Shown: positions 7,212 to 38,334 of the stretch, piece after piece
Layout of the letters: each line of letters opens with the position of its first letter
How positions within the stretch are numbered: position 1 is the first letter of the stretch
Assembly (NCBI GenBank): GCA_947624085.1
Contig: CANQIK010000002.1
Location: forward strand, 7,639-71,638
Length of the DNA stretch: 64,000 nucleotides
From: an uncultured Bacilli bacterium
Lineage (GTDB): Bacteria; Bacillota_I; Bacilli_A; RF39; UBA660
Direction: 5' to 3'
Program-made: the position numbers and the translations under genes
Notes under the pieces: model-generated
Database searches by the model: none
What the model saw: only the letters and a program-made list of their open reading frames with translations
Told to the model about the DNA's origin: nothing

Positions 7212-7920
7212 AAAAACAGTAGCAAAAGCTGATATTACAACTAAAAAAGAAAACATAGAGAAGTTAAACATTTATGAAAAATTACTACTTATAACAAATG
7301 AAATAGGAGTAATAGAAAAAAACTTGAATGTTCAAGTAAGCAAAAATAATAGTTATAAAGCTGTTAGTGAAAGAGACGTACTTGATGCCGTAAAGCCACT
7401 TGAACAAAAATATAGAGTGTATAGTTATCCACACGCAAGGGAAATAATTGATTATGGAACATTACAAAAAGAAACGGAATTTGAGGGAAAAGTAAGTAGA
7501 ACTAACACTTTATATATGCGAGTTCAAATAACATATCGATTTGTTAATATTGATAATCCTGATGAATTTATCGATGTAATTAGTTATGGAGATGGATTAG
7601 ATTCCGGAGATAAAGCACCAGGCAAAGCAATGACTTATGCTGATAAATATGCATTACTAAAAGCTTATAAATTGTCGACTGGAGATGATCCTGATAAAGA
7701 TCCTAGTCCAGAAAATGGATATTCTAAAACTACTCCGAAAAAAGTTACTAAAGCTACAACAAGACAAATCGAAGTGTTATCAAAGGTTTATGTAGGAGAT
7801 AATTTAGTGAAGTTACTTCAAGCAAATAATATTGAAAAACTTGAGGATTTAAGTGTTCAAAAAGCAAGTGAACTTATAAAAAAATTAAATGAAAGAAATG
7901 AGGTAAAAGGAAATGAATAA
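7198..7920 (+). CDS. ERF-family single-strand annealing protein
   Basis: 240 aa. Pattern IYEKLLLITNEIG...YKAVSERDVLDAV...GKAMTYADKYALLKAY is typical of the ERF superfamily. It lies next to the SSB and the nuclease. Confidence 0.55.
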   Translation: MEEIKKTVAKADITTKKENIEKLNIYEKLLLITNEIGVIEKNLNVQVSKNNSYKAVSERDVLDAVKPLEQKYRVYSYPHAREIIDYGTLQKETEFEGKVSRTNTLYMRVQITYRFVNIDNPDEFIDVISYGDGLDSGDKAPGKAMTYADKYALLKAYKLSTGDDPDKDPSPENGYSKTTPKKVTKATTRQIEVLSKVYVGDNLVKLLQANNIEKLEDLSVQKASELIKKLNERNEVKGNE

Positions 7921-8233
7921 TGGAATAGTAAAAATTGAAAATAATAACATAGTTGTTGCAGAGGAAGTAATACAACAAATTAAAGATTTTACGAAGATTA
8001 AAGAAGAACTTGATTTGAAAGAAAAAGAGCTTAAGCAAGATTTAAAAGAGGCTATGGAAGAGCTAGGATTAAAAAAATTTATAGTAAATGGATTATGTGC
8101 AACTATTAAAGAGGCGACTATTAGAAAATCTTTAGACACAACTAGGATTAAAGAAGAAATGCCAGATATTTATGAAGAATATTTAAAAGAAACACCAGTT
8201 TCAAGTTCCATAACTTTAACAATAGCGGACTGA
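7913..8233 (+). CDS. Hypothetical protein
   Basis: 106 aa, acidic. Translationally coupled within the recombination module. Confidence 0.45.
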   Translation: MNNGIVKIENNNIVVAEEVIQQIKDFTKIKEELDLKEKELKQDLKEAMEELGLKKFIVNGLCATIKEATIRKSLDTTRIKEEMPDIYEEYLKETPVSSSITLTIAD

Positions 8234-11629: not shown

Positions 11630-11906
11630 TGGAGCAAGTGAAAAAGAATTAGACTTAGCAAATGCTAGAGCAGATATAATACTAGCATTAGATAATACAG
11701 CAACTTATGAAAGCTGGTTATATATAGACGCTTATATTGAAAAATTAGAAGAAGAAAAGCAACAACTTATTTCGTTTTTAAAGCATTTAATAGGAGAAAC
11801 TGAATGTGCTTACGATTATAAAGAAAATGAATATAAAAATAGTGGCAAATGGAATTTACTTAACGAAATTTTAGATTTTGTTAATGAAGGTGGTAAAGAT
11901 GAGTGA
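11613..11906 (+). CDS. Hypothetical protein (paralog of 11351..11629)
   Basis: See the partner gene. Conserved junction ggtggtaaagatga. Confidence 0.5.
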   Translation: MVKMISGASEKELDLANARADIILALDNTATYESWLYIDAYIEKLEEEKQQLISFLKHLIGETECAYDYKENEYKNSGKWNLLNEILDFVNEGGKDE

Positions 11907-24007: not shown

Positions 24008-27000
24008 ATGGGGCTTAATTTAGGAACAATTTATCAACAAAATTTAGCTGATGAGCAAAAAAAACGCAGTAATATTCAACCAAATAATAATGATTCTACA
24101 AAAGGTATCCACATTGGAACAATTTATAGTCAACCCAAAAGGAAAGAAACATCCATCGAAACATTGCAAAAGAAATATGTAGAGGAAAAGGAAAATTCTT
24201 ATAATAAGGCAAGTAATAAATTATATAATGCATCTAAATCTTTAAATAATTTTTTAAAGCAAAATAAAGTTGATAAGTTTAGCAATTTTGCTCCAACAAA
24301 TAAGAGGGATTATAACGAGCCTTTAAAGGTGCCAACAAAGAAAGATTTTATTGATACAGCCAAAAAAGCGGAAGAACAACAACAAAAAATATATTCATCA
24401 GAAACTTACAAAGGCTTAAAAGAAAATGTTGATAAATTGAGCGAAGAAGAAGATAAAGCATACCGAGAATATAGAAAAGCTATAGGAAAAGAAGAAGAAC
24501 CTTGGTATAGAAAAATATTACAAACTCCTGAGGCTCTTAAAGATGGTTATGACTTTGGCGATATAACGAAAACCCTTTTAAGTACCGGAGGAGATATCGC
24601 ATTAAGCTTAGAAAAAAGCTTTCAAGGAATTGGCCAAAATGCACTAAATTTACTAAATAATGCTGCTGCTCAAGTAGGAGATTGGATAGGCCAAGATGAA
24701 TGGGCGGATAAAGTAAGAGAAAATGTCAAAAATAATAAAGCAACTTTAATACCTGGAGTTTCAAACCCTGTTCACGATATGGCTAATCTAAACAATCCAG
24801 TAACAAATACGAATTTAGAACCATTAGTAAATAAAGATAGTATCTTAGGTGATACATCTAGAGAAGCTATTCAAGGAGTAGGATATTATACAGGCATGAC
24901 TGCACTTCAAAGTGTCGGTATTCCATGGCAAGCAACTGCTGCCACTACTTCTATTGGTAGTGAACTTCCCGAAGCTTATGCAAATGGTGCTACAGATGGA
25001 CAAGCTTGGGCTAGTGCTATAAATTCTGCTGCTTGGGAGGTCGCTTCTGAATATATCTCAGGTGGTATACCATTACCGGGTACAGGAAAAGGCTTAGATA
25101 AGTTAGCTTCGGGTTTTACCGAAAAGTTAAAGAATAATACGGCTAAATATCTCTTGGAAGCCGGTTATCAAATGGGTGGCGAAGGCTTAGAAGAACTTAT
25201 ATCAGGATTAGGCAGTTCAATTGGCAAGAAATTAACCTATATGAGTGATAAAGACTTTGCGGAAATATATTCTAAAGAAGACGCATTAAAAGACTTTGTA
25301 ATTGGTGGAGCGGTCGCAGGACTAACTAATTCAATTAATCCAACTACTTGGCATAATATAAATTCAGGTAAAAGTTTATTAACAGGTAGAACTTCACAAG
25401 AAGCTAATAGCAGAAATGAAACAATACAAAAGCTTTCTGTGGAGGCCGAACAAAGCAAAGGAAAGCCTTTAAGTTCTAAAGAAAAAATTGATATAGAAGA
25501 TTATGTCGATGGAACAATGCTAGATACCCTCTATTCATTAAAAGCTGATTTAGAAAATACGGAAGATGATAAGGCAAAAGCTTCTTTAACAAAACAAATA
25601 GAAGATTTGCAAGATAAAATAACAAATGTTGTTTTAAGTACTAAATCATTAGACATTTTACAATATCAGTTGAATCGCCAAAATCAAACAATACAATCAA
25701 CTATGCAATCCTCTGCAGTTAACGATGAGAATACAATGAGCTCTATGTTAATTCAAAATAATGTTAAAAATAGCATAGCACCTCAACAAAATGTAAACCC
25801 ATCTAATCAAGTATTTCAATTTACTACAACAGGAAATACTAAAGTAGATAATTTTTTGCAATCTGCAGTAGATAGTCGTTTCAATAATACAAAACAATCT
25901 CAAGATTTTTTAAATAGTTTCTCCAAGGTAATATCCGATAAAGGATATAATGTTTTATTTGATTCTACAATTAACAAAAATGGCAAAAGTGTGAACGGTC
26001 AAATAACAACTTTGAAAAACGGAGAAGTAGAAATAAGAATAAATCCTAATTCTAATAACGCAGGAGAATTTTTAATTGTTCACGAAATAACTCATGCAGT
26101 AGAAAATGAGGGATTAAGAGAACTTATCATAAATTATGCTCAAAAGCATTATGATTTTAAAGCTGCACTCCAAGATAAAATGAACCTTTATGGAACTAAT
26201 GAAGTTACAAGTGAAGTTGTAGCAGATATTTCAGCTCAAATTCTTGGCAATCAAGAATTTATAAATAGCTTAACCATGCAAAACACTCCTCAATCAAAAA
26301 CATTAATTAGAAAGATATATGATTCAATAAAGAGATTGGTAAATACTTTTACAAGTGAGGGCAGATACAAAAATTTTGTACAAGACCTAGAACAAAAGTG
26401 GAGAGAAGCTTATAGATCTACTACGCAAGAGCAAGCAGTTAGTAACTTGAAAAGTAATACAAGCTATTCGATTGGTGGAATTAAAGCGATTAATTCAATG
26501 GCTGATTCCAAGTATAAGTTTGATGCATTATATGATTACAATAGAGCTCTTGAAATGGCAGAAAGTGGAAAATATTCTAATGAACAAATTAGGAAAGAAA
26601 CTAAATGGTTTCAAGACAAAAATGGAGATTGGAAATTTGAATTTGATGATAGCTCTATAACATTAAAAACCGAAATACTTCATAAAAACGGGGCTTATAA
26701 GTTAGGAGACATAATAGAACATGATTATTTGTTTAAATTGTATCCTGAATTAAAAGATTACGATGTAATATTTGAAAATATGAAAGCTAATGGATCTTTT
26801 AATGTTAAAGACAAGAGAATAAGAGTAAACAATAATTTATTAAATTCTACTGAATATAAATCACTAAAGGGTACTATACTTCACGAAACACAACATGCAA
26901 TTCAATATATCGAGCGATTTCAAACTGGTATGAATGCTAGACTTAGTAAAAAAGCATATTATACTAGTTTAGGAGAAGTTGAAGCAAATGATACCAAAAT

Positions 27001-30000
27001 GAGATATATGAATGACTATACTAAAGAGGGTAGAAAAAATATAGCTCCTGAAAGTTCAAAATCTCATCCCACTCATCCTGAGTATGATAATTATATGAAA
27101 AATAGAGGCACAATTGACAAAATTAAGGATGCAGTGTATCCTTTATATGGAGGAATACTTCAAAATGCTAAAAAAAATCAAGAAGTTTTTTCGGAAAATA
27201 AGAGGCCGAATAATCGACTGGTGGATGGAAGAGGACTGTTAGATAACAGTTCTTTTTCTTTTGATGAAAATGTTAAAAGATATGACGATTTAAAATCTAC
27301 GAATAAAATTGAATTTTTTAAAAAAGATAATGGAGATATTCAAGTATCTTTAATTGATTCTAATAACAATTTGGTTAATCAATTTGATTTGATATCAAAT
27401 AACGATGCAATTAAACAACTTGGCAATGATATAGCAAATTATTTAATTGATAATGCAACAGATGATTATAAAACAATTTATATAGGTAATGATATTAACA
27501 ACCTAGGCAATGCAACAGATTATTTTATGAACCATAGGCCAAATGAAGATGGAGCAACTTCAGATAATTTAGCAAATCAAAATATTGAAACTCCAGGGCC
27601 AAAAGATTTATATGAGCATCCAGAATATTATTTTCCTATGAATGAAGAATATAGTAGGGAAAGTATTAGAGTATTAAATAAAATCAAAGGCAATCCGAAT
27701 GCTGATGTAACTATATATAGGGCAACAATTGGCAACGAAATTAACCCAGGTGATTGGGTCACTTTATCAAAAACATATGCCGAGTTGCACAATGAATCAC
27801 AATTTGATGGAAAGGCTAATATTCTTCAAAAAGAAGTCAAGGCAAAAGATGTTAAATGGGCAATGGATGATATAAATGAATTTGGTTATTATCCAACCGA
27901 TAATAATGTAAAAAACTCAATAAGTAACGCTGATAAGTGGCAAGAATATTTAGATAGACATTATAAAGCAACAGGTACTAGAACTAATATGAATTCTATT
28001 ATAGCTCCTACAAGAAATAAAGGACTAGATAATAGTTCTTTTTCTTTTGCTCAAGAACAATCTAATAGGTTAACGCAAAAAGAACAAGTAGAACTAAATA
28101 ATTTAAATAATCTACCATTTGAATTAAGTCAAGAAGAACAAAATAGAAAAACATATTTAGAAAATAAAGCTAAAGGTTTAATAAAATATCCAGAATTATC
28201 TCCTAAAATCACTTTTGAGGATATAAGAAATAGTTATTCAAAATATAAAAATCTAAATGACTTTAATAGTAATATTCTTGATAAGGCAGAAAGCTTCATA
28301 TCAGGATATAGAAATACTTCGAGAAGAACTAAAGCTGAATGGTTAGAAGTAGCTAAATTTATAGGTGCTAATTTAAACGCTAAAAATTCTACTGAATTAG
28401 AAAAATACGCAATTCAAAGTTGGCATAGTGCGAAACCTAATATAAAAGAAAATTTAAATAGACAAGGACAAGGATATGTTAAGTTCTCAATTGATGAGTG
28501 GGTTAATCAAATATATAAATCTGCAGGAGTTGGAGAAACAATTAAAGGAAGTAATAATACTAAAAATAGTATTAAAGCTCCACTAAAAAATAGTGATACT
28601 AATAAAGTAGTAGCTCCAACTAGAGAAACACTTAATAGTAGTTCAAAAGTATCAAATCCTAGTGAAATAGCTCAATTGACACCGGAGGATGCTAACACTA
28701 CACAAAAATTAAATTCAAAACAACGAAAGTGGGTTAAAACTTCTACTGAAAGTAATCCTGTTAAAGGAAAGGTTTTAATAGAAAACTTAGACTCTGCTAA
28801 AACAAATTATGTCGTTAGAAGCAACGAAAGCACATTGCAAAGTGCTAATTCAAAATTAAATTCTTTAGGTTATGATGAGTCAATATCATATATAAAGAGT
28901 AAAATGAGTGATAAAAAAGTTGATTTAGAAGATATAGCCTTAGCGGAAAGATTAATTCAAGAGTCAATAAAAAATGGAGATACTAAAACTGCTAGTGATT
29001 TAATAATGGATGTTGCTATTTTAGGCACTGAATTAGGCCAAAAAGTACAAGCATTATCAATAATTCAAAAATTAACTCCGGAAGGGCAACTTGCTATGTA
29101 TCAAAAAATTGTATCAAGAGCAAAAATAAAAGGCGAAAAAGCTTATACGGATGTAAATATTACTCAAGACATGGTAGATACCATACTAGGAGCTTATAAC
29201 GAAGATGGTACGTATAATCAAGATGATTTAAATGAAAGAGTAGAAATTTTTAAACAACAAGTTGCAGAACAATTAAAAAGTAGTAAGTCCGAAAAAATTA
29301 ATGAGTGGAGATATTTAAGCATGTTAGGTAATCCTAAAACTCATATTAGGAATATGGTCTCTAATTTAGCTATGACAGGCACAATTAAAGTTAAAAATGC
29401 AATGGCTAGGACAGGAGAGGCTATAGCATCAAAATTGACTACAATTGAAAGAACTAAAACCTGGAAGAAATCAAGCGATACTGTAACAAACTTTGCAAAG
29501 CAAACGGCTGAAGAGATGAAAAGTGTTATTTCTGGTGAAAGTAAATATGGTGAAAAAGCTTCAATAGAGTCTAAAAAACAAGTTTTTAAAAGTAAAACTT
29601 TAGAGAGAATCAGTGATTTTAATAGTAATGCACTTGAAGCAGAAGATTGGTTTTTTAGCAAAAGAGCATTTCAAAATTCTTTTAGTGAGTATTTAACTGC
29701 CAATGGAATAGAAACTCAACAAGATATAACCAATAATGCAAAACTTATTGAAAAAGCTAAATTATATGCCGTTGAACAAGCAGAAATAGCTACGTTTAGA
29801 CAATATAGTAAATTAGCTAGCTTAATTAATAAATTTGAAAGAAATAACAAAGTGGCGGGACTAGCAATAGGAGCTACTATACCTTTTAAGAAAACACCTA
29901 TTAATGTAGCTAAAGCAGGTGTTAACTATTCTCCTATTGGTTTAATAAAAAGCATAAGTTACGATGCTTTTCAGTTACATAAAGGGAATATAAATGCAAG

Positions 30001-31621
30001 TCAATTTATAGACAATGTTTCTCAAGGAATGACTGGAACAGCATTAACATTGTTGGGGTATGCTCTTGCAAAAGCAGGCTTTGTATCTGGTGCAGGAGAT
30101 GATGACAAAGAAGGCAAGATGGATTACTATTTAGGCAATCAATCATATTCTTTAAAGTTTGGAAAGACAACATTTCCAATAAGTTGGGTTTCACCTGTTG
30201 CCATGCCTTTCTTGGTTGGAGCTAATGCATATGAAAAATTAGAAAATCAAGAAGAATGGGATGCTAATATTGTTATCGATACATTAGCACAAACTTTAGA
30301 TCCTTTGAGCGAAATGTCTTTCATTTCTAGTTTAACAGATGTACTGCAATCTTATAACCAAGGCTCATTTAAGATGCTTTCATCTATGGGTACAAAAGCA
30401 GCACAAAGTTACATTGGACAATTTTTTCCAACTTTATTTAGCCAAATAGCCGCTACCTTTGATGACACAAAAAGATCAACATCAGCATCTAAGAACAGTT
30501 CGTTTAAAGTAGCAGAGGAAACTGTAAGGCAGATAATGTATAAAATACCTGGTTTAAGGAATATGTTGGAGCCAAGCACTAATATATGGGGTGAAGAACA
30601 AAAACAATCGGATAACATATTTGTAAGAGCGTTTAATAACTTTATAAATCCATCTTCTCCTAAAAGCTATGCACCAACGAAATTAGAAAACGAATTAAAA
30701 AGAGTTTATAGAGAAACAGGTGACTCTAGTGTTATACCTGGCATTCCTTATGGCAACATAAAATACAAAGGAATAAACTATCAAATGTCGTCTGAAGAAT
30801 ATACAAAATACAAAAAAACTTATGGCCAAAATGCTAAACAAAAACTAACAGCATTGATAGATAATGATGATTATAAGAAAGCAACTGATGAACAAAAAGC
30901 TAAAATGATAGATCAGGTATTTGATTTTTCAAAAGCTATTGCTAATGAGGAATACTTTAAATCAATTAAAATCGACTTTTCTAGTGACAATCTAAAAACG
31001 ATAAAGGAATTGAAAGAGTTAGGCTTTAGCGACAAAACTATTATTGATTATACTGCAAAATATGCGATTATTAATTCAATTAAGCAAGACAAAACTTTGA
31101 CAAGCGAGCAAAAGCAAAAGAATATTGCAAGTGAATTAATAAATAGCAACTTTAATAATAAAGAACTAGCATATATGTATGATAAAGCAGGCTACTCTAA
31201 AAAAGAAAAATTAGATGCATTAATAACTATGAACATTCCTATTAAAGAATTTATAAAATTGGATAGTTCAGATATTAGCAGTGACTACGATACAAGTACA
31301 GGCAAGGCTATAACTAATTCTAAGAAAAATAAATACATTAAATATGTGGATAGTTTAAAGCTTTCTACACCTCAAAAAGCTATTTTAATAAAAATGCAAT
31401 ATAACTCATATAACAATTACAATGATCAAATTGTAAAATACATAGATAGCTTAAAAGAGACAATAAATGATAAAAAAATATTGCTTACTAGGATAGGATT
31501 TGATGACTACAGAAAAGAGGTTATTAATTATGTGATGTCGAAATACAAGAATCCAGAAGAAAGAATTGAAATGTTGAAACAACTAGGATACACAATTAGA
31601 AACGGAAGGGTGTATTGGTAA
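24008..31621 (+). CDS. Giant multidomain virion protein (2537 aa) with two zincin-like HExxH motifs; polyvalent or ejection-protein-like
   Basis: A single uninterrupted ORF with RBS aaggagg. HEITH at 26081..26095 and HETQH at 26882..26896. No tape-measure-like periodicity. Confidence 0.8.
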   Translation: MGLNLGTIYQQNLADEQKKRSNIQPNNNDSTKGIHIGTIYSQPKRKETSIETLQKKYVEEKENSYNKASNKLYNASKSLNNFLKQNKVDKFSNFAPTNKRDYNEPLKVPTKKDFIDTAKKAEEQQQKIYSSETYKGLKENVDKLSEEEDKAYREYRKAIGKEEEPWYRKILQTPEALKDGYDFGDITKTLLSTGGDIALSLEKSFQGIGQNALNLLNNAAAQVGDWIGQDEWADKVRENVKNNKATLIPGVSNPVHDMANLNNPVTNTNLEPLVNKDSILGDTSREAIQGVGYYTGMTALQSVGIPWQATAATTSIGSELPEAYANGATDGQAWASAINSAAWEVASEYISGGIPLPGTGKGLDKLASGFTEKLKNNTAKYLLEAGYQMGGEGLEELISGLGSSIGKKLTYMSDKDFAEIYSKEDALKDFVIGGAVAGLTNSINPTTWHNINSGKSLLTGRTSQEANSRNETIQKLSVEAEQSKGKPLSSKEKIDIEDYVDGTMLDTLYSLKADLENTEDDKAKASLTKQIEDLQDKITNVVLSTKSLDILQYQLNRQNQTIQSTMQSSAVNDENTMSSMLIQNNVKNSIAPQQNVNPSNQVFQFTTTGNTKVDNFLQSAVDSRFNNTKQSQDFLNSFSKVISDKGYNVLFDSTINKNGKSVNGQITTLKNGEVEIRINPNSNNAGEFLIVHEITHAVENEGLRELIINYAQKHYDFKAALQDKMNLYGTNEVTSEVVADISAQILGNQEFINSLTMQNTPQSKTLIRKIYDSIKRLVNTFTSEGRYKNFVQDLEQKWREAYRSTTQEQAVSNLKSNTSYSIGGIKAINSMADSKYKFDALYDYNRALEMAESGKYSNEQIRKETKWFQDKNGDWKFEFDDSSITLKTEILHKNGAYKLGDIIEHDYLFKLYPELKDYDVIFENMKANGSFNVKDKRIRVNNNLLNSTEYKSLKGTILHETQHAIQYIERFQTGMNARLSKKAYYTSLGEVEANDTKMRYMNDYTKEGRKNIAPESSKSHPTHPEYDNYMKNRGTIDKIKDAVYPLYGGILQNAKKNQEVFSENKRPNNRLVDGRGLLDNSSFSFDENVKRYDDLKSTNKIEFFKKDNGDIQVSLIDSNNNLVNQFDLISNNDAIKQLGNDIANYLIDNATDDYKTIYIGNDINNLGNATDYFMNHRPNEDGATSDNLANQNIETPGPKDLYEHPEYYFPMNEEYSRESIRVLNKIKGNPNADVTIYRATIGNEINPGDWVTLSKTYAELHNESQFDGKANILQKEVKAKDVKWAMDDINEFGYYPTDNNVKNSISNADKWQEYLDRHYKATGTRTNMNSIIAPTRNKGLDNSSFSFAQEQSNRLTQKEQVELNNLNNLPFELSQEEQNRKTYLENKAKGLIKYPELSPKITFEDIRNSYSKYKNLNDFNSNILDKAESFISGYRNTSRRTKAEWLEVAKFIGANLNAKNSTELEKYAIQSWHSAKPNIKENLNRQGQGYVKFSIDEWVNQIYKSAGVGETIKGSNNTKNSIKAPLKNSDTNKVVAPTRETLNSSSKVSNPSEIAQLTPEDANTTQKLNSKQRKWVKTSTESNPVKGKVLIENLDSAKTNYVVRSNESTLQSANSKLNSLGYDESISYIKSKMSDKKVDLEDIALAERLIQESIKNGDTKTASDLIMDVAILGTELGQKVQALSIIQKLTPEGQLAMYQKIVSRAKIKGEKAYTDVNITQDMVDTILGAYNEDGTYNQDDLNERVEIFKQQVAEQLKSSKSEKINEWRYLSMLGNPKTHIRNMVSNLAMTGTIKVKNAMARTGEAIASKLTTIERTKTWKKSSDTVTNFAKQTAEEMKSVISGESKYGEKASIESKKQVFKSKTLERISDFNSNALEAEDWFFSKRAFQNSFSEYLTANGIETQQDITNNAKLIEKAKLYAVEQAEIATFRQYSKLASLINKFERNNKVAGLAIGATIPFKKTPINVAKAGVNYSPIGLIKSISYDAFQLHKGNINASQFIDNVSQGMTGTALTLLGYALAKAGFVSGAGDDDKEGKMDYYLGNQSYSLKFGKTTFPISWVSPVAMPFLVGANAYEKLENQEEWDANIVIDTLAQTLDPLSEMSFISSLTDVLQSYNQGSFKMLSSMGTKAAQSYIGQFFPTLFSQIAATFDDTKRSTSASKNSSFKVAEETVRQIMYKIPGLRNMLEPSTNIWGEEQKQSDNIFVRAFNNFINPSSPKSYAPTKLENELKRVYRETGDSSVIPGIPYGNIKYKGINYQMSSEEYTKYKKTYGQNAKQKLTALIDNDDYKKATDEQKAKMIDQVFDFSKAIANEEYFKSIKIDFSSDNLKTIKELKELGFSDKTIIDYTAKYAIINSIKQDKTLTSEQKQKNIASELINSNFNNKELAYMYDKAGYSKKEKLDALITMNIPIKEFIKLDSSDISSDYDTSTGKAITNSKKNKYIKYVDSLKLSTPQKAILIKMQYNSYNNYNDQIVKYIDSLKETINDKKILLTRIGFDDYRKEVINYVMSKYKNPEERIEMLKQLGYTIRNGRVYW

Positions 31622-33096
31622 TGAATCAAGATAAAACAAGAGCAGTAACTCTTGAAGATTTAATAAGAAGATATGATTTGGAAAATTTAAAATCCGAAAG
31701 AAAAGTCATTAAAACAATGGCTACTACAATAGAAAATCAACATACTATTATAAAACAATTTATAAAAAATACATATAAGTACTCAAATGACCAAGCTAAA
31801 TTAACGGCTTGGTTTTTTAGTGGTCCGCCAACCCTTACAAATGAGCCTTTTTCGAGCCTCTTGGACAAACAAAAGCAAGAAGAAGACCATTTATACTATG
31901 ACCGAGATACTGGACTTGTATACCGCCTAGAAAATGACGGAGGCTATAAGTGGACTCTTATTGAAGATGATAGTTTGGCTCAGTCTATGGCAATAGCCAA
32001 TTCTGATCCTGATTCGCAAGATAATAGAAGAAACATTTTCTATGAAACACCAACTCCACCTTATGCGGTGGGCGATATTTGGATTGATAATAACATTATT
32101 ATGCGTTGCCGATGTTCTAGAGATGGCGATTCGTTTAAAGACACGGAATGGGTAGAACAAAAATATTACTCGGAATCAAATGTTCTTTTAGATGTCAGGG
32201 CAGTTCTAGATAGCTTTATTGAAAATGTTGAAAAAAATTATATTACGACATCAAGACTCGAAACTACTAAAAACACTATAGAGGCAGAAATTACATCAAA
32301 ACTTGAGGGTGTAGCAGATGATGACGGGTTTGTAACAGTAGCTAGTCTTATTTTAGCAATCAATGGAGCAGAGTCTTCTGCTAAAATTAAAGCCGATAAA
32401 ATTGCTTTAAGTGCTACTGATATTTTAAACCTTATAGCAGGTAATGAAATTAATCTTACAAGTAGGAACATTACGATAAAGTCGGATAATTTCAGTGCAA
32501 CTAAAGATGGCACTGTAACCGCTAATAAACTTAAAGCGACGAATGTTGAAATATCCGGAACTATATCAGGAAGTAAAATAAGTGGTACTGATATAAATGC
32601 CGGAACAATAAAAGGTTCGGAAATTAGCGGTGGAAGTATTAAAGGCACAAATATTGAGGGAAATAATATAACAGGTGGAACTTTACATTTAATAAGTGAT
32701 AAGGGAAATGACATATTTATTATCGAAAATAGTGCGCATACCAAAAGACTTGAAATTACAGGAAATGGAATCTACTATTACACAAGTGATGATGGTAAAT
32801 ATTGGTGGTCGGCATCCCACATTGATTTTAGAGAAACGCAAGTAGATATCACAGGAATTACAGAAAAAAATGCTATAGCAACAGGAACTTGCCAATTAAA
32901 CCAAACAGATACAACAGTGTATTTTAATAAATCCTTTGGCGTTGCGCCTATTGTACTATTGCAATGTATTGAACCTACTTCGGATGTTACATATGTTGCA
33001 CATATTGCAAGTGTAACAGATACTTATTTTAAAGCATATATACCGATATTAGGCTTAAATGAATATAAAAACTTTTATTGGATAGCTATAGCATGA
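31621..33096 (+). CDS. Tail fibre protein
   Basis: ATG overlaps the upstream stop (TAATG). Repetitive G-[ST]-x-I-x-G beta-helix-like repeats such as NVEISGTISGSKISGTDINAGTIKGSEISGGSIKG. Confidence 0.6.
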   Translation: MNQDKTRAVTLEDLIRRYDLENLKSERKVIKTMATTIENQHTIIKQFIKNTYKYSNDQAKLTAWFFSGPPTLTNEPFSSLLDKQKQEEDHLYYDRDTGLVYRLENDGGYKWTLIEDDSLAQSMAIANSDPDSQDNRRNIFYETPTPPYAVGDIWIDNNIIMRCRCSRDGDSFKDTEWVEQKYYSESNVLLDVRAVLDSFIENVEKNYITTSRLETTKNTIEAEITSKLEGVADDDGFVTVASLILAINGAESSAKIKADKIALSATDILNLIAGNEINLTSRNITIKSDNFSATKDGTVTANKLKATNVEISGTISGSKISGTDINAGTIKGSEISGGSIKGTNIEGNNITGGTLHLISDKGNDIFIIENSAHTKRLEITGNGIYYYTSDDGKYWWSASHIDFRETQVDITGITEKNAIATGTCQLNQTDTTVYFNKSFGVAPIVLLQCIEPTSDVTYVAHIASVTDTYFKAYIPILGLNEYKNFYWIAIA

Positions 33097-33408: not shown

Positions 33409-35295
33409 ATGAACGAAATAAAAGTAAAAGTAAACTTTGCCAAAAAGACCTTAATAAAGACAGGCACGGATTTAACTGTGAATGATTATAATTCCACAAA
33501 ACTTGTCTTTGATTTTGATAGACAAGATGGTACAAAAATTTTAGAAATGATTAATCCATCTGGCGAGTTAGTTTTGTTAGAAAATATTAAAGACAATGAA
33601 GTTATCTTAACTGGTAAAACGGAAGATGGAAAAGACGCGTCGCTGTTTACCGAAGAAGGTCAGTATATTTTTGAAATTAGCCTTTATGAAGAAAATAGCA
33701 AACTTACATCTGCTAGTGGTAAGTTGCGAGTACGTGCAGAACAAGTTGAAATAAACGGACAGGTAGTAACTCAATATCTACCTGTTTTTGATGAGCTGTT
33801 ATCAAAAGTAAAAGAATCACTTGAGGAAGTTGAACTTTTAAAGGAAACGGTTATATATGATTGCACTACGGCAAGTGAAAAAGCAAAAGAAGTATCGGAT
33901 AAAGCAGAAGCTGCTGCAAAAAGTGCAACCGACTCTGCTGAAAGAGCAAATAGTGTAATTGACCAAGCTGAACAAGCAATCGGAGAAATTGAGAGTACTG
34001 TTCAAGACATCGAAAAAAGTAAAGAGGAAATGGAACAAGCAATCCAAGGCAAAGTGTCTGAAATGGAAAGTGTAATTACAACTAATACTACCAACTTAGA
34101 AAATTCTATTAATGATAAGACTACGGCTTTAGAAGAGGCTATTAATAGAAAAGCAAATGAATTAAGTACCTCAATTGAAAGTAAAACAACTGCTCTTGAG
34201 GAAACGCTTAATACTACTAAGGATTTGCAAAAGCAAGTAAAAGATAACAATGATAGTTTAACAGAACAAATCACAAAGTCTAACGAAGAACTAACAGAGC
34301 AAATCACACAATCTAATCAAGCATTAACTAGCCAAATTACGGAAGCTACGCAAAATTTAACCAATCAAATAGAAGAAAGTAGAACACAACTTGAAACTGA
34401 AATCGGGGAGCGGATTGCCCAAATTACTACATTGTCGGTTGATGTCGTAGAACAATTGCCTACAGAGAATATTAGCCCAACAACTATTTATTTAATTAAA
34501 CCTGAAAATTTGCCACAAGATGTACAAGCTCAATCAATATCAAAGAATATTGCTAAAAATACGATGGTTATATCTCCTTTAAATACTAATGATGTAAGAA
34601 CAATAGCTACTACTGGAGTAGGCGAAGAAAACTTTTATTTAGCTTGTTTTTATGTAAAAGAAAAATGGACAATTGTCGGTTCAACAACTACTGACTTAAC
34701 TCCTTATGCAAAGACTGTTGATGTAGAAAAGTCTATTAATAGTGCAAAAACTGAAATAAACGGAAACATTGATACTAAACTTGCTGAATATAAGAAGTCT
34801 ACGGATATTACAAGCGAAATTACAAGTGCGGTAGATAGTGCTAAACAAGAAGTTAAAGCCGAAATACCTACAAGCACCGAAGATTTAACTAATGATAGTG
34901 GCTTTATAACTTCAAACGATATTCCTAAAAACATATCTACTTTCACAAACGATAGTGGATACATTACAAGCAAAGATATACCAACTAATTTATCTTCATT
35001 TACAAATGATAGTGGGTTCATTACAAGCGGAGCAATACCAACAAATGTATCAGCATTTACTAATGACGCAGGATATTTAAAATCATTTACGGAAAGCGAC
35101 CCGACTGTACCTAGCCATGTTAAATCAATATCATCTGCAAATATCACATCTTGGAATAACAAGGCTGAAAAGAGTGCAATACCTACTAAATTAAGTCAAT
35201 TAACCGATGATTTACTTATCCAAGCAAGTAGCGAAAGTAATGCGAAGAGCTTGTCTACATCAAACCCTGGCAAATATTATTACACGTTAGAGTAG
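33409..35295 (+). CDS. Tail fibre/receptor-binding protein with a coiled-coil shaft and four 18-aa tandem repeats
   Basis: Central heptad-repeat region. C-terminal FTNDSG(F/Y)ITSxDIPxN(I/L)SxF repeated four times (about 34880..35100). Confidence 0.6.
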   Translation: MNEIKVKVNFAKKTLIKTGTDLTVNDYNSTKLVFDFDRQDGTKILEMINPSGELVLLENIKDNEVILTGKTEDGKDASLFTEEGQYIFEISLYEENSKLTSASGKLRVRAEQVEINGQVVTQYLPVFDELLSKVKESLEEVELLKETVIYDCTTASEKAKEVSDKAEAAAKSATDSAERANSVIDQAEQAIGEIESTVQDIEKSKEEMEQAIQGKVSEMESVITTNTTNLENSINDKTTALEEAINRKANELSTSIESKTTALEETLNTTKDLQKQVKDNNDSLTEQITKSNEELTEQITQSNQALTSQITEATQNLTNQIEESRTQLETEIGERIAQITTLSVDVVEQLPTENISPTTIYLIKPENLPQDVQAQSISKNIAKNTMVISPLNTNDVRTIATTGVGEENFYLACFYVKEKWTIVGSTTTDLTPYAKTVDVEKSINSAKTEINGNIDTKLAEYKKSTDITSEITSAVDSAKQEVKAEIPTSTEDLTNDSGFITSNDIPKNISTFTNDSGYITSKDIPTNLSSFTNDSGFITSGAIPTNVSAFTNDAGYLKSFTESDPTVPSHVKSISSANITSWNNKAEKSAIPTKLSQLTDDLLIQASSESNAKSLSTSNPGKYYYTLE

Positions 35296-35303
35296 GTGGG
35301 TAT

Positions 35304-35828
35304 ATGATATATAGACAAGGCAAAAAAGTAGATACTTTATATAAAGGTGGCAACAAGATAAACAGTATATACAAAAATGGGAATAAGATATATTCGGGAG
35401 TGTTTGTACCGCAACATACAAATATAGTTACGCTTAATCAACTTAACCTTACGGGCGACCAAGGAGAATTACAATATATATATATAGCTAGTATTACTCC
35501 GGGAGACCAACGTAATATTATATTGAGAATAAATGGTAAATTGAATACATCTTATGGAAATGTTTGGTATGCTTTTAAAGTTGAAGCATTAGGTAAAGGA
35601 GCCTTTCCAGGTTATTACATTCGTGCAGAAGATAAAGAAATTGAAAATACTCCTGAAATAGACAACTATACGAATTATGTAGATATGGGTGGTGAAGCTT
35701 CTAATCCAGTAACAATTAAAGAATTTGAAGTAACATTTAATACTATTGTTAACTTTTATGTATATATAATAGATACATATACAGGAGTAATTAAGTTGCC
35801 TATAGTATATACTGCTAGACCATCATAG
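35304..35828 (+). CDS. Cassette protein, paralog 1 (in-frame reference copy)
   Basis: The N-terminal module IYKNG.K(I/V)..(I/L)Y is repeated and is shared with the two downstream frameshifted paralogs. Divergent C-terminal domain. Confidence 0.6.
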   Translation: MIYRQGKKVDTLYKGGNKINSIYKNGNKIYSGVFVPQHTNIVTLNQLNLTGDQGELQYIYIASITPGDQRNIILRINGKLNTSYGNVWYAFKVEALGKGAFPGYYIRAEDKEIENTPEIDNYTNYVDMGGEASNPVTIKEFEVTFNTIVNFYVYIIDTYTGVIKLPIVYTARPS

Positions 35829-35849
35829 GCAAATTAGAAAGGAGAAAAC

Positions 35850-36252
35850 ATGGCAATATACAAAAACGGAAGCAAGGTAGCAAACCTTACAATTAATGGC
35901 AAGAAAATAAGTAAAATATACCACGGGGGGGGTAATATATAGTGGTGATACTGGGCCTTACGGAACAATTAAAATTGAAAACTGGTATATAGAATTTAGT
36001 GGGGAAACTTGCACCCTTATTTTTACACTAGCTAGTAATTCCAACAAACAATATTCTGTTAAACTTAATCCTCCGAATTTAAATACTGGGGTGCCAGGAT
36101 ATAATACAATTAAAATCCCAGTAGGAAAATACAAGATAACAGCGAAATCGTCATCGGAATATTATCCTGCTAATTATACTATTGATGGAAGTTCTTATGC
36201 AATGGGTTCATATTTAGATATAGGTGAAAAAACAATAACAATATCAGTTTAG
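35850..36252 (+). CDS. Cassette protein, paralog 2, split by a G8 tract
   Basis: A 30-codon leader MAIYKNGSKVANLTINGKKISKIYHGGGNI* stops after the G8 tract. A roughly 100-codon open frame follows with no start codon. At G7 it would read ...KIYHGGVIYSGDTGPYG, matching paralog 1. Confidence 0.55.
35925..35932 (+). repeat. Homopolymeric G8 tract inside a coding region
   Basis: Eight G in an approximately 30% GC element. Candidate slipped-strand switch. Confidence 0.7.
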
Positions 36253-36330
36253 TAAGTTGATGTGATTAATTTAAAAATATAAAAAGCAAAATATTAATTT
36301 GAACTAGACAAAAAGAAAGGAGGTGTGATA

Positions 36331-36531
36331 ATGAGTAACAAGGTTTACGATATTTTGAAAATTATAGCTTTAATTATTTTACCAGCCTTAACTGCTTGCA
36401 CTGGAACTATTTTAGAAGCTTTAAATGTTTCATGCAGTGGTGTAGTGGTTACAATAATGACTGCTATAAGTACTTGCTTAGGTACAATAGTTAGCAAATT
36501 AAGTTCAGACTACAAAAAGAAAAATAATTAA
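36331..36531 (+). CDS. Holin (putative)
   Basis: 66 aa with two TM segments and a charged C-terminus (KKKNN). RBS aaggaggtg. Sits upstream of the endolysin. Confidence 0.55.
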   Translation: MSNKVYDILKIIALIILPALTACTGTILEALNVSCSGVVVTIMTAISTCLGTIVSKLSSDYKKKNN

Positions 36532-36544
36532 GAAAGGATAAATT

Positions 36545-37125
36545 ATGGCAATTTATAAAAATGGTAAAAAGCTCACGAACCTGTATATAAACGGGAAAAA
36601 AGTAAGCAAGATTTACCACGGGGGGTAATATATAGTTCAAAATATGTGCCTACTTCGAAGATTGTAAAAACAGAGTTTTTGACTGTGGATTTATCGCAAG
36701 GTAGAACATTTTATTTAGACGCAGGAGTAAATCTTGAATATAATCAACAAACTTGGAGTGAAAATACTAACATTCGTAAAGAAGCGAGTCAATGTACTGT
36801 GCTTGGCGTATACGATAATACTTTTCGAGCTTACCTCCATAATTACGCAAATGTCTTTTTCCAATTTTCAAATCATTCTTTAGCAGGTACACCTGATTTA
36901 GATGATTATTCAAAATATGGGAATAATGGTGTTGCCGAAGAGTCAACAAGCCAAAACATTGAGATTCCGGCTTCCGGAACTCCAGTAACATTTTTTGCTT
37001 ATGGAAGAGGTTCTACCGATGATACATACCCATATCCTAGCTTGCCTCAAATTGTGAATTATGGTTCAAAAAGTGAGGATGTAGTAGAGACAATAATTAC
37101 GATAAAAGGTGAAATATCGGTATAG
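36545..37125 (+). CDS. Cassette protein, paralog 3, split by a G6 tract
   Basis: A 27-codon leader MAIYKNGKKLTNLYINGKKVSKIYHGG* stops after the G6 tract. The downstream 159-codon frame (track ORF 36646..37125, GTG start) would fuse in frame at G7, reading ...HGGVIYSSKYVPTSKIV. Confidence 0.55.
36620..36625 (+). repeat. Homopolymeric G6 tract inside a coding region
   Basis: Six G at the same position in paralog 3 as the G8 tract in paralog 2. Confidence 0.7.
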
Positions 37126-37218
37126 AAAGGAGAATATATATGAAAGAAATTATAAACGAAGAAATACAACTTACAGAAGAACAAATTGAAGAATTTTCAA
37201 ATAAAAAGGGAGACGAAA

Positions 37219-38298
37219 ATGAGTAATTCAAATTTAGTAGATGTAGTAGTACCTGCTTACGAGGGAAATTACACTAAAGGTAGAAGCAAAAAAATAGAAA
37301 AAATAACCGTGCACCACATGGCAGGAAAGTTATCAGCATATCAATGTGGAGCATATGTTTTTCAAACGGTAGGTCGCAAAGGCTCATCAAATTATGGAAT
37401 AGGTAATGATGGGGACATAGGCCTTTACGTAGACGAGGAAAACACTCCTTGGTCTGACGGAATTTGGGATAGCAATTGTAAATCAGTAACTATTGAAGTA
37501 TCTGATTGCCAAACAGGTGGAGTTTGGCCTGTATCCGATAAAGCACTCAATAGTCTTATCAGATTAGTAGCGGATATTGCTATTAGAAATAATTTGGGCA
37601 ATCTTGTTAAAGGCAAAAATTTAACTTGGCATAGAATGTATGACTCATCTAATATTTGCCCGGGGGATTATCTAATTTCTAAAATGGATTACATTTGCCA
37701 AGAGGCAAATAAGATAATAAATGGCTCAAGTGATACCGCAGAAGAATATTTTGTACCTAATGGGGAATATGTACTAAAGTTTGATAAATGTATTCGTACA
37801 AGTCCAAATTTAAGCAATAACATATTACGTGCCGAAAAAGTAGATTCATTCACAAAAACTTTATTAGTTTCACTAACAGGTAATGCAATGCTTAAAGCGG
37901 GAACGGAAATTAAATGTTTAAACATAATTAAGGAAAACGGTCGTATCTGGGGCAGTTATGGAAATTGTTGGGTATGCCTACAAAATGCCGATGGGGAGAA
38001 ACAAGCTACAAGAATAGCGGATAATTATTTTGAAGCAGGAGGTACTTATAAGTTAAATCTTGCTAAGTGTATCCGTACAAGTCCTTGCTTGAGCAATAAT
38101 ATATTGCCTGCTCAAAAAGCAGATTCATTTACAAAAACATTGCTTACTTCAACAACAGGCAATGCTATGTTGAAAGCAGGTACTGAAATAACTTGCCTAA
38201 AGATAACTAAAGAAAATGGCCGTATCTGGGGAAGCTACGGAAATTGTTGGGTATGTCTTCAAAACGATGATGGCACGAAGCAAGCGACAAGAATTTAA
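37219..38298 (+). CDS. Endolysin: N-acetylmuramoyl-L-alanine amidase (amidase_2/PGRP type) with two C-terminal cell-wall-binding repeats
   Basis: ITVHHMAGKLSAYQCGAYVFQ...GIGNDG matches the amidase_2 signature. Two tandem roughly 85-aa repeats follow (CIRTSP.LSNNIL...GRIWGSYGNCWVCLQN). RBS aaaagggaga then ATG 37219. Confidence 0.85.
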   Translation: MSNSNLVDVVVPAYEGNYTKGRSKKIEKITVHHMAGKLSAYQCGAYVFQTVGRKGSSNYGIGNDGDIGLYVDEENTPWSDGIWDSNCKSVTIEVSDCQTGGVWPVSDKALNSLIRLVADIAIRNNLGNLVKGKNLTWHRMYDSSNICPGDYLISKMDYICQEANKIINGSSDTAEEYFVPNGEYVLKFDKCIRTSPNLSNNILRAEKVDSFTKTLLVSLTGNAMLKAGTEIKCLNIIKENGRIWGSYGNCWVCLQNADGEKQATRIADNYFEAGGTYKLNLAKCIRTSPCLSNNILPAQKADSFTKTLLTSTTGNAMLKAGTEITCLKITKENGRIWGSYGNCWVCLQNDDGTKQATRI

Positions 38299-38302
38299 AA
38301 AG

Positions 38303-38334
38303 GTTAGTCGAATAACTCGGCTAACTCTTTTTTT
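38303..38334 (+). terminator. Rho-independent terminator after the lysis genes
   Basis: gttagtcg-aataact-cggctaac followed by tcttttttt. Confidence 0.6.

What the first reader, a model, noticed from the sequence alone, without database searches (positions are those of the whole stretch)
35304..37125. Three-member cassette family with a shared N-terminal anchor module and divergent C-terminal domains, interleaved with the holin gene
The genes at 35304..35828, 35850..36252 and 36545..37125 share an N-terminal repeat module, IYKNG.K(I/V)..(I/L)Y.NG.KI..IY. Their C-terminal 100 to 160 aa are unrelated. They sit immediately after the two tail-fibre genes, and the holin (36331..36531) is wedged between copies 2 and 3. 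A conserved adaptor with swappable heads is the classic architecture of receptor-binding or depolymerase cassettes. Combined with the G-tract switches, each prophage copy could display different subsets of the three heads.
Basis: partly seen in the sequence, partly recalled or inferred. Interest (0 to 1): 0.6.

Follow-up and report, generated by a model that had tools for sequence, protein, structure and literature searches.

The report
Poly-G-switched swappable phage tail-fibre heads
A dormant virus in a low-GC gut bacterium carries three small genes with the same 30-residue "plug" and unrelated heads. They are probably alternative host-recognition tips for its tail fibre, and two are currently switched off by runs of G, a trick so far documented only in Campylobacter phages.

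Summary
Three genes after the tail-fibre genes share an N-terminal module of three ~10-residue IYKNGKKI-type repeats and have unrelated C-terminal bodies. A Dp-1-type holin lies between copies 2 and 3.

Copies 2 and 3 are not intact ORFs. Each frame breaks at a G run (G8 at 35925-35932, G6 at 36620-36625) in the same codon of the third repeat. These are the only G or C runs of 6 or more in 64 kb, and G7 would restore both proteins.

The module defines an unannotated family: 38 cluster representatives, always at residue 1, with very diverse heads. Heads in relatives include C-type-lectin-like DUF6273 and a beta-propeller. The module gene always directly follows a fibre gene ending in a shared acidic tag.

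Related phages from rabbit-gut Bacilli genome bins carry G8-G9 runs in their modules, some in frame and some not.

Best reading (about 0.5): fibre-tip adhesins with a common adaptor, two of them under slipped-strand ON/OFF control.

Not shown: run-length variation within one lineage (all 8 contigs agree), presence in virions, or any fold (AlphaFold2 failed).

This is a new variant of a known kind, the Campylobacter phage polyG switches.

The parts
33409..35295 (+). 628-aa fibre-like protein: N-terminal domain, long coiled-coil region, FTNDSGFITS-type repeats. Proposed carrier of the heads.
   Evidence: ORF. Weak PHROG minor-tail hit and coiled-coil Pfam hit. Its C-terminal 170 aa align with the 892-aa fibre of L074 (E=2e-17), best at the very end.
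35218..35292 (+). C-terminal tag of the fibre (..SSESNAKSLSTSNPGKYYYTLE). Proposed docking site for the N-module.
   Evidence: Related tags end the gene immediately upstream of the module gene in at least 10 other loci (alignment A7). Docking itself is inferred.
35304..35828 (+). g1: intact 174-aa module + head protein with no G run (Gly-Gly encoded GGT GGC). The constitutive copy.
   Evidence: The identical protein (P0001) is found on 5 metagenome contigs. No Pfam, PHROG or PDB match for the head.
35850..35942 (+). g2 module ORF (30 aa, own AGGAG ribosome-binding site), ending at a TAG three codons after the run.
35925..35932 (+). G8 run in the His-Gly-Gly codons of repeat 3 of g2. G7 or G10 would be in frame.
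   Evidence: The same length is seen in 6 contigs. GGG is the rarest Gly codon here (5.8%) and is never used for Gly-Gly elsewhere in the late genes.
35932..36252 (+). g2 body (106 codons, +1 frame). It has no start codon for its first 53 codons, so it can only be expressed through the module.
   Evidence: No Pfam, PHROG or PDB match.
36331..36531 (+). Holin, Dp-1 family, 66 aa.
   Evidence: Pfam PF16938 E=5e-15; phrog_881 E=3e-15.
36545..36628 (+). g3 module ORF (27 aa, own ribosome-binding site), ending at a TAA directly after the run.
36620..36625 (+). G6 run at the same codon position as in g2. G7, G4 or G10 would be in frame.
   Evidence: The same length is seen in all 8 contigs. The flanks TACCAC...TAATATATAGT are identical to those of g2.
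36625..37125 (+). g3 body (166 codons, -1 frame), an orphan head.
   Evidence: One metagenome copy (L001) lacks 61 bp of it, window 36955-37015.
37219..38298 (+). Endolysin (Amidase_2 plus two C-terminal repeats). Last gene of the transcription unit.
   Evidence: Pfam E=4e-16; phrog_7698 E=2e-39.
38302..38326 (+). First terminator-like hairpin on the + strand after the fibre genes. Fibre, g1, g2, holin, g3 and lysin would therefore form one late transcript.
   Evidence: consensus scan only.

Best explanation
g1, g2 and g3 are alternative distal adhesins ("heads") of the prophage's tail fibre. Each has a ~30-residue N-terminal adaptor of three beta-hairpin-like IYKNGKKI repeats. The adaptor docks onto the conserved acidic C-terminal tag of the 628-aa fibre encoded just upstream. 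The unrelated C-terminal domains bind different host-surface ligands.

g1 is always made. g2 and g3 are contingency genes. A G run in the Gly-Gly turn of the third adaptor repeat changes length by slipped-strand mispairing during DNA replication. A minority of genomes, and so of virions after induction, would then carry g2 and/or g3 in frame (G7). This gives up to four head combinations.

In the lysogen sequenced here both are OFF, so only g1 and two headless 27-30-residue adaptor peptides would be made.

Shown: the shared module, the frame breaks at the G runs, the wider family, the synteny with tagged fibres, and G runs in modules of relatives in both frame states.

Inferred: docking to the fibre tag, receptor binding, virion location, and actual switching.
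For: (1) Both frame breaks sit at the same codon of paralogous modules. They are the only G or C runs of 6 or more in 64 kb.

(2) Both bodies stay open for 106 and 166 codons in a 30% GC genome. g2's body has no start codon of its own for 53 codons.

(3) GGG makes up 5.8% of Gly codons in the late genes, and 0 of 21 other Gly-Gly pairs use GGG-GGG. The always-on g1 uses GGT GGC.

(4) Related phages carry runs in their modules.
- L074 gene 1: G8, in frame.
- L011 gene 1: G9 at the orthologous codon, out of frame, in a gene only about 69% identical in DNA.
- L011 gene 3: G9 in the first repeat, in frame.
- L074 gene 3: G9 in the first repeat, open to the contig end.

(5) All 6 G runs of 6 or more in the window, L011 and L074 (73 kb) lie in modules, which make up about 1% of that sequence.

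(6) g2 needs a +1 shift and g3 a -1 shift. A length-variable run explains both. A single recoding signal does not.

(7) The module family has 38 representatives with diverse heads. Heads in relatives are DUF6273, modelled as C-type lectin in DGR targets proposed to bind receptors (PMC10743442), and a beta-propeller.

(8) The module gene always directly follows a fibre-like gene with the tag. This holds even where that pair lies far from lysis genes, as in L096.

(9) Agreement among 8 independent assemblies excludes random sequencing error.

(10) Precedent: hypermutable polyG tracts give phase-variable receptor-binding proteins in Campylobacter phages (Sorensen 2021, as cited in PMC10579305 and PMC12823448).
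Against: - No length polymorphism was seen. All contigs of this prophage (99.98-100% identical, so one clone) have G8 and G6.
- No fused g2 or g3 protein, nor a fused L011 gene 1, exists in a 15-billion-protein catalogue.
- G6 is short for an efficient switch.
- One copy (L001) has a 61-bp deletion inside g3, which suggests g3 is dispensable.
- The three heads have no homologues and no usable structure model.
- There are no virion proteomics for any family member.
- g3 lies between holin and endolysin, an odd place for a tail gene.
- Another family member's phage (L103) has no run in its module but has G7-G9 runs elsewhere.
Confidence: 0.5

Rival explanations
1. g2 and g3 are decaying duplicates. 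G runs are mutation-prone, frameshifts hit there first, and a dormant prophage is under no selection to repair them. Only g1 is functional and nothing is switched adaptively.
For: Both copies are OFF in all 8 contigs. No ON version is catalogued. L001 has a 61-bp deletion in g3. Prophage coverage equals host coverage, so the phage is dormant.
Against: Both bodies are still fully open. The run is kept at the same codon in genes about 31% diverged in DNA, despite using the rarest Gly codon. Relatives include in-frame runs. A pseudogene would be expected to lose the run and gain stops.
Confidence: 0.2
2. The frame breaks are decoded without any DNA change. Ribosomal frameshifting on GGG-GGG next to a stop, or RNA-polymerase slippage on the G run, would give a fixed low ratio of full-length head to abundant headless adaptor peptide.
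For: Run lengths are stable across samples. The zero-frame stop comes 0-3 codons after the run. The flanks TACCAC-Gn-TAATATATAGT are identical in g2 and g3, although the rest of the module differs in codon choice. Stand-alone 36-aa module-only genes exist in other phages, so a free adaptor may have a role.
Against: g2 needs +1 and g3 needs -1. No stable RNA structure lies 3' of either run (z = 0.66 and -0.24). Homologues with the run in frame (L074, L011 gene 3) need no recoding. L011 has different flanks.
Confidence: 0.1
3. The module proteins are not receptor binders. They would be fibre-assembly chaperones (the gene slot of lambda Tfa, P2 G, Mu U) or lysis-cassette accessory proteins (the slot of PBSX XkdW/XkdX/XepA). 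The G runs then matter little for host range.
For: The gene sits directly after the fibre gene, and in L100 after a baseplate-fibre series and just upstream of a small unidentified ORF. In the window the copies are interleaved with holin and endolysin. No signal peptide or transmembrane segment is evident by eye in the three sequences; this was not tested with a predictor.
Against: No Pfam or PHROG chaperone or lysis family matches. The conserved part is the module and the fibre tag, while the variable part points away from the fibre. That is the reverse of chaperones, whose variable part fits the fibre tip (own knowledge of North et al. 2019). Heads of 250-650 aa with C-type-lectin or beta-propeller domains are binding domains. 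In L096 the fibre-module pair is not near any lysis gene. Three chaperones for one fibre would be redundant.
Confidence: 0.15

Closest known systems
Hypermutable polyG tracts in receptor-binding-protein genes of Campylobacter phages (Sorensen et al. 2021, Cell Rep 35:109214; cited in PMC10579305 and PMC12823448)
   Same: A homopolymeric G run inside the coding sequence of putative phage host-recognition genes. Several such genes occur per genome, with ON and OFF frames, giving mixed virion populations.
   Different: Here the phage is a temperate prophage of a low-GC Bacilli-type host, not a lytic Campylobacter myovirus. The run lies in a shared adaptor module of a paralogous cassette family. 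Runs are shorter (6-9). Length variation within a population was not observed here.
T2/S16-type gp38 adhesins and Mu/P2 tail-fibre assembly proteins that stay on the fibre tip (own knowledge)
   Same: A small protein encoded directly after the fibre gene, with one end attaching to the fibre tip and a variable part determining specificity.
   Different: No sequence or profile similarity. The attachment element here is a 3 x 10-residue repeat. There are three paralogues for one fibre.
Invertible tail-fibre segments of Mu (G segment) and P1 (C segment), cited in PMC10579305
   Same: A stochastic, reversible choice between alternative fibre-tip proteins in a temperate phage.
   Different: That switch is site-specific inversion by a recombinase and is mutually exclusive. 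Here it would be independent slippage in each gene, allowing combinations.
DGR-diversified C-type-lectin receptor-binding proteins (Mtd of BPP-1; DUF6273 'tgt2' proteins and tentaclins, PMC10743442)
   Same: Relatives of this cassette (L011, L074, L059, L096) carry DUF6273 heads of about 250-300 aa, like the single-domain DGR targets. The purpose, rapid tropism variation, is the same.
   Different: No reverse transcriptase or template repeat was looked for or seen in the cassette. Variation is ON/OFF rather than sequence hypermutation. The window's own three heads are not DUF6273.
Multi-tailspike phages with conserved N-terminal anchor domains (CBA120, G7C, multi-depolymerase Klebsiella phages; own knowledge)
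   Same: A conserved N-terminal anchor with exchangeable C-terminal specificity domains encoded in tandem.
   Different: Those are large trimeric beta-helix enzymes displayed simultaneously. Here the heads are small (100-165 aa), there is no enzyme signature, and two of three are switchable.

Membership tests
Phage polyG phase-variable receptor-binding genes (Campylobacter phage type) | Homopolymeric G run inside the ORF whose length sets the reading frame | tested here: met
   G8 at 35925-35932 and G6 at 36620-36625. G7 restores both frames.
Phage polyG phase-variable receptor-binding genes (Campylobacter phage type) | Run length is polymorphic within a phage lineage or population | tested here: not met
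   8 contigs from at least 7 samples all have G8/G6, but they are one clone at about 3x coverage. No ON protein is catalogued. Length differences were seen only between diverged homologues, G8 in L074 versus G9 in L011. Read-level data were not available.
Phage polyG phase-variable receptor-binding genes (Campylobacter phage type) | The gene product is a receptor-binding protein and its ON/OFF state changes host range | not testable with these tools
   Only indirect evidence: the position after the fibre gene, and C-type-lectin or beta-propeller heads in relatives.
Bacterial-type simple-sequence contingency locus | The repeat is retained at the same site across diverged homologues, with differing lengths and both frame states, against codon bias | tested here: met
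   Window g2 and g3, L011 gene 1 and L074 gene 1 carry G8, G6, G9 and G8 at the same codon, with one of the four in frame. GGG is 5.8% of Gly codons.
IYKNG N-module family (unannotated; defined here) | Three ~10-residue [IV][YF]xNGxK[IV]xx repeats starting at residue 1-3 and ending ..IYS | tested here: met
   hhalign probabilities of 96-97% for g1, g2 and g3 against the 14-member profile A6. 38 of 48 profile hits carry the module at residue 1.
IYKNG N-module family (unannotated; defined here) | The gene lies immediately downstream of a fibre-like gene ending in the acidic ..A[KQ]..S.S....YYTxE tag | tested here: met
   The window fibre ends ..ESNAKSLSTSNPGKYYYTLE, with its stop codon ending at 35295, 8 nt before g1 starts at 35304. 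The same arrangement occurs in L074, L096, L059, L042, L092, L016, L100 and ENFP1, and more loosely in L012, L103 and L104.
DUF6273 / C-type-lectin phage receptor-binding domain (PF19789) | Pfam match above the gathering score | tested here: not met
   No hit for g1, g2 or g3. It is met by relatives L074, L011 (two genes) and L059 at 51-70 bits.
Tail-fibre assembly chaperones / gp38 adhesins | Profile similarity to known chaperone or adhesin families | tested here: not met
   No Pfam, PHROG or PDB-sequence match for the module or the heads.
Dp-1 holin family (for the interleaved gene) | Pfam PF16938 above the gathering score over the full length | tested here: met
   56 bits against a cutoff of 25, residues 3-65.

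The most novel reading that the evidence does not exclude
Bacilli phages share an undescribed two-part docking system: an acidic C-terminal tag on the fibre and a 3 x 10-residue N-terminal adaptor on exchangeable heads. In one gut lineage a poly-G contingency switch has been built into the adaptor's coding sequence. A single temperate phage would then release virions with combinatorially different receptor-binding heads. In the OFF state it would make headless adaptor peptides that cap or compete for the docking site. This would be the first slipped-strand host-range switch in a Gram-positive or temperate phage.
Probability: 0.3. Interest if true: 0.75.

Novelty: new variant of a known kind. 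Interest (0 to 1): 0.55.

Why it matters
Every mention of phage-encoded poly-G switching of receptor-binding proteins that I read (two papers) cites a single group, the Campylobacter phages. A second, unrelated example would suggest that contingency loci are a general phage strategy for host-range bet-hedging, alongside diversity-generating retroelements (DGRs) and invertible segments. This one sits in a temperate phage of uncultured gut Bacilli, inside a portable adaptor.

The adaptor-and-tag pair is found from Lactobacillaceae phages to rabbit-gut genome bins and is absent from Pfam and PHROGs. It would help annotate orphan genes after fibre genes as receptor-binding heads. It could also serve as a natural plug-and-socket for engineering phage host range.

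A practical point follows. Gene callers split or drop such genes, so these heads are systematically missed.

Tried and rejected
- **Family scans:** Pfam and PHROGs on g1, fused g2 and fused g3 gave nothing. PHROGs on 10 family members gave nothing for the module.
- **Cultured phages:** blastn of the region found no match. tblastn found only the ENFP1 N-terminus.
- **Word-indexed protein search:** g3 had no hit, g1 hit only itself, and the module alignment had no hit.
- **IMG/VR and JGI scans:** scans with the exact run flanks, with proteins and with degenerate patterns were mostly empty. The 493-aa tail protein found four distant loci without modules. The genome-collection pattern was dominated by an unrelated 31-aa protein family, and only 5 of 71 loci were relevant.
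- **Structure:** AlphaFold2 single-sequence models of fused g3 and of g1 were unusable (pLDDT 30 and 39), so no fold search was run. PDB sequence searches with the module profile and with each head gave nothing significant.
- **Search for ON variants:** exact look-up of fused proteins found none.
- **Contig breaks at the G8 run:** two Logan contigs start with 1 and 3 G. I rejected this as evidence of heterogeneity. A length polymorphism should leave about 7 shared G, so low coverage or poly-G read trimming is more likely.
- **Large surface proteins among the profile hits:** these are partial matches to Ig-like (Big_13, Muc_B2) repeats, not family members.
- **Lactobacillus phage ATCCB:** its BppU-like protein matched the fibre segment, but no module gene follows it.
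- **Small membrane proteins:** the window's 95-aa protein is not similar to the membrane protein between the modules in L074.
Full report
**Setting.** The window holds a prophage of about 37 kb.
- A tyrosine integrase lies at 1150-2283 next to tRNA-Thr.
- The late genes run from a terminase at 14665 to an endolysin ending at 38298.
- I tested eight proteins with Pfam: the integrase and seven late-region proteins. Terminase and integrase families were found. None of the six structural-region proteins hit a tail-sheath, tail-tube or tape-measure family.
- One of them is a 2537-aa protein carrying an LPD23 polyvalent-protein domain.
- GC content is about 30% throughout.
- Host genes follow from about 38.5 kb.

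**What is at the locus (shown).** The gene order is:
- a 493-aa tail protein at 31615-33096;
- a 95-aa ORF;
- a 628-aa fibre-like protein at 33409-35295;
- g1 at 35304-35828;
- g2 starting at 35850;
- a Dp-1 holin at 36331-36531;
- g3 starting at 36545;
- a 27-aa ORF;
- an Amidase_2 endolysin at 37219-38298;
- a terminator-like hairpin at 38302-38326.

No + strand terminator lies inside this stretch. Each of g1, g2 and g3 has its own ribosome-binding site.

All three begin with three ~10-residue repeats:
- g1: MIYRQGKKVDTLYKGGNKINSIYKNGNKIYSG
- g2: MAIYKNGSKVANLTINGKKISKIYHGG
- g3: MAIYKNGKKLTNLYINGKKVSKIYHGG

Profile comparison confines the similarity to residues 1-33/46, with hhalign probabilities of 96-97%. 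The bodies are not significantly alike.

**The frame breaks (shown).** g2 and g3 are not intact as assembled.
- g2 reads CAC-G8-TAATATATAG. The zero frame stops three codons later, and the 106-codon body is in the +1 frame.
- g3 reads CAC-G6-TAA. The stop is immediate, and the 166-codon body is in the -1 frame.
- With G7, both read ...KIYHGGVIYS... and give proteins of 133 and 193 aa.
- G10 would also fuse them and would restore the canonical repeat length seen in g1 and other family members.

These are the only G or C runs of 6 or more in 64 kb. The number of runs is not above chance. What stands out is that both lie at the same codon of paralogous modules.

GGG is the rarest glycine codon in the late genes (22 of 382). 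None of 21 other Gly-Gly pairs is encoded GGG-GGG. The unswitched g1 uses GGT GGC. g2's body has no start codon for its first 53 codons, so it can only be expressed through the module.

**Not a sequencing artefact, but no polymorphism either.** The exact g1 protein and the holin occur on 8 metagenome or Logan contigs from at least 7 samples. These are 99.98-100% identical to the window.
- Every contig that covers a run shows G8 (6 contigs) and G6 (8 contigs).
- Prophage and host contigs have the same coverage of about 3x, so the phage is dormant.
- Two Logan contigs start inside the G8 run. They keep only 1 or 3 G, which fits low coverage or read trimming better than length heterogeneity.
- No fused form of g2 or g3 exists among 15 billion catalogued proteins.
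- One copy (L001) lacks 61 bp of the g3 body.

**The module is a real, unannotated family.** An exhaustive HMM search with the 36-position module profile returned 48 hits at E<1e-3.
- 38 carry the module at residue 1.
- Their bodies are unrelated and give proteins of 55-688 aa. Several hits are only 34-36 aa in total.
- The other 10 hits are partial matches to Ig-like repeats in large surface proteins.
- One member is the 688-aa protein of Levilactobacillus phage ENFP1. It has the module followed by a PQQ-type beta-propeller.
- A group of 175-200-aa proteins ending ..ITAY occurs in Lactobacillaceae prophages.
- The module matches no Pfam, PHROG or PDB sequence.

**G runs recur in the modules of relatives.** In contig L011, from a sample whose ENA accession lies close to those of the window's contigs:
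- Gene 1 reads MAIYKNGKKIDSIYANGKKINKIWHSGGG-stop, with a G9 run. G8 would fuse it to a 251-aa DUF6273 body.
- Gene 3 has a G9 run in the first repeat and is in frame.

In L074, from an uncultured-Bacilli genome bin labelled "Lapin" (rabbit):
- The gene after an 892-aa fibre has G8 at the orthologous codon and is in frame (296 aa, DUF6273).
- A further gene has G9 in its first repeat.

L011 gene 1 and L074 gene 1 are only about 69% identical in DNA, yet both keep the run, at lengths differing by one.

All six G runs of 6 or more in the window, L011 and L074 lie in modules, which make up about 1% of those 73 kb.

Other members (L051/L096, L059, L042, L100, L103, L104) have no run in the module. 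L103 has G7-G9 runs in other structural genes.

**Link to the fibre.** Wherever the upstream gene is visible, the module gene starts 0-15 nt after a fibre-like gene. The last ~25 residues of that fibre gene carry a related acidic tag.
- Window: ..SSESNAKSLSTSNPGKYYYTLE
- L074: ..DDENAKSLSTQNPNKFYYTVEEEA
- L042: ..DSDTHAQSSSKSDAEGFYYTEES
- ENFP1: ..SEANAQTASSSDNNLHYTEE
- Looser versions occur in L012, L103 and L104.

In L096 the fibre-module pair sits between replication-type genes and the terminase, away from any lysis gene. In L100 it closes a baseplate-fibre series. The pair therefore travels as a unit. The conserved elements are the fibre's end and the head's start. That is the pattern expected of a socket and a plug (inference).

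**What the heads do (inferred).** The window's three heads are orphans.
- They have no homologues.
- They match no family or PDB sequence.
- AlphaFold2 single-sequence models were unusable (pLDDT 30 and 39), showing at most an all-beta tendency for g1.

The heads of relatives are more informative. DUF6273 scores 51-70 bits in four relatives. It has been modelled as a C-type-lectin domain in targets of diversity-generating retroelements (DGRs) in gut phages, proteins proposed to bind receptors (PMC10743442). ENFP1 carries a beta-propeller. This supports a receptor-binding role for the family, but it does not prove that role for g1-g3.

**Mechanism and rivals.** I favour slipped-strand ON/OFF switching of g2 and g3 at the DNA level (confidence about 0.5 for the whole picture). 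The reasons are:
- the two genes need opposite shifts;
- relatives occur in both frame states with different run lengths;
- the run is maintained against codon bias;
- the bodies remain open.

Rivals:
- **Neutral decay in a dormant prophage (0.2).** Favoured by the uniform OFF state and the L001 deletion.
- **Recoding by ribosome or RNA polymerase (0.1).** Favoured by the identical TACCAC/TAATATATAGT flanks and the stops right after the runs. Opposed by the opposite shift directions and by the lack of downstream RNA structure.
- **A chaperone or lysis-accessory role (0.15).** Favoured by gene position. Opposed by the direction of conservation, by the head domain types and by L096.

**Comparison with the known.** The only phage precedent cited in the two papers I read that mention such tracts is the hypermutable polyG tracts in Campylobacter phage receptor-binding genes (Sorensen 2021, via PMC10579305 and PMC12823448). 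The logic is the same here. Three things differ:
- the host type and phage lifestyle;
- the placement of the run inside a shared adaptor of a cassette family;
- the absence of demonstrated length variation.

Functionally it also resembles gp38-type tip adhesins, Mu G-segment switching and DGR-diversified lectin heads. It shows no sequence relationship to the first two, and its link to the third comes only through relatives.

**Verdict.**
- It is a new variant of a known kind.
- Interest is 0.55.

Noticed in passing
window 35218-35292; L074 4740-4814; L042 2170-2248; L006 (ENFP1) 7915-7990; L100 about 11680-11753: Fibre-like genes from very different Bacilli phages end in a related acidic tag (..[SD][DE]x[NH]A[KQ]..S.S....[FY]YTxE(E)). 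Each is followed within 0-15 nt by a gene starting with the IYKNG module. Neither the tag nor the module is in Pfam or PHROGs.
   Followed up: partly
L012 7404-7514 (P0010; also P0015, P0024); L104 6001-6168 (P0017): Stand-alone module-only mini-genes (36 and 55 aa) sit after tagged fibre-like genes. One of those fibres is a 342-aa collagen-repeat protein. Each is conserved on 4-5 contigs, several from unrelated accession series. A free adaptor or cap may therefore have its own function.
   Followed up: partly
window 36955-37015 versus L001: One metagenome copy of the prophage (ERZ27249368) lacks 61 bp inside the g3 body, with 4 nt of overlap at the junction. This truncates the head. It could be a real deletion or an assembly artefact at 3x coverage.
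   Followed up: no
L103 9437, 10832, 12128: A JGI metagenome phage contig (34% GC) that carries a family member has G8, G7 and G9 runs in other structural genes. One lies at the very end of a 460-aa gene (..NGGG-stop followed by TAATATA, like the window's context). G runs may be used more widely in these phages.
   Followed up: partly
window 24008-31621: A 2537-aa protein with an LPD23 polyvalent-protein domain and two HExxH-type motifs (HEITHA, HETQHA) sits in the structural region. None of the six structural-region proteins tested hit a sheath, tube or tape-measure Pfam family. The virion type is unclear.
   Followed up: no
window 37186-38298: The endolysin has an Amidase_2 domain followed by two near-identical ~90-residue C-terminal repeats (..CIRTSP.LSNNIL.A.K.DSFTKTLL..TGNAMLKAGTEI.CL.I.KENGRIWGSYGNCWVCLQN..). 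They match no Pfam family and are presumably a cell-wall-binding module.
   Followed up: no
L017-L087 (about 40 loci, e.g. L018 5708, L022 5192): The degenerate DNA pattern for MAIYKNG.K mostly picked up an unrelated, highly conserved 31-36-aa protein (MAIYKNGEKVEELVKDDATxENIEAMIKKYL). It occurs in Lachnospiraceae, Christensenella, Lacrimispora and other Clostridia genomes.
   Followed up: no
L090 and L091 starts (= window 35932 / 35930): Two Logan contigs from sister runs (ERR10663776 and ERR10663774) begin inside the G8 run. This is probably coverage loss or poly-G read trimming, but read-level heterogeneity was not excluded.
   Followed up: partly
window 35919-35943 and 36614-36636: The bases flanking the two G runs (TACCAC before, TAATATATAGT after) are identical in g2 and g3 and use rare TAC/CAC codons. 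The rest of the two modules differs in many codon choices. This suggests recent gene conversion or a constraint on the run's context.
   Followed up: partly
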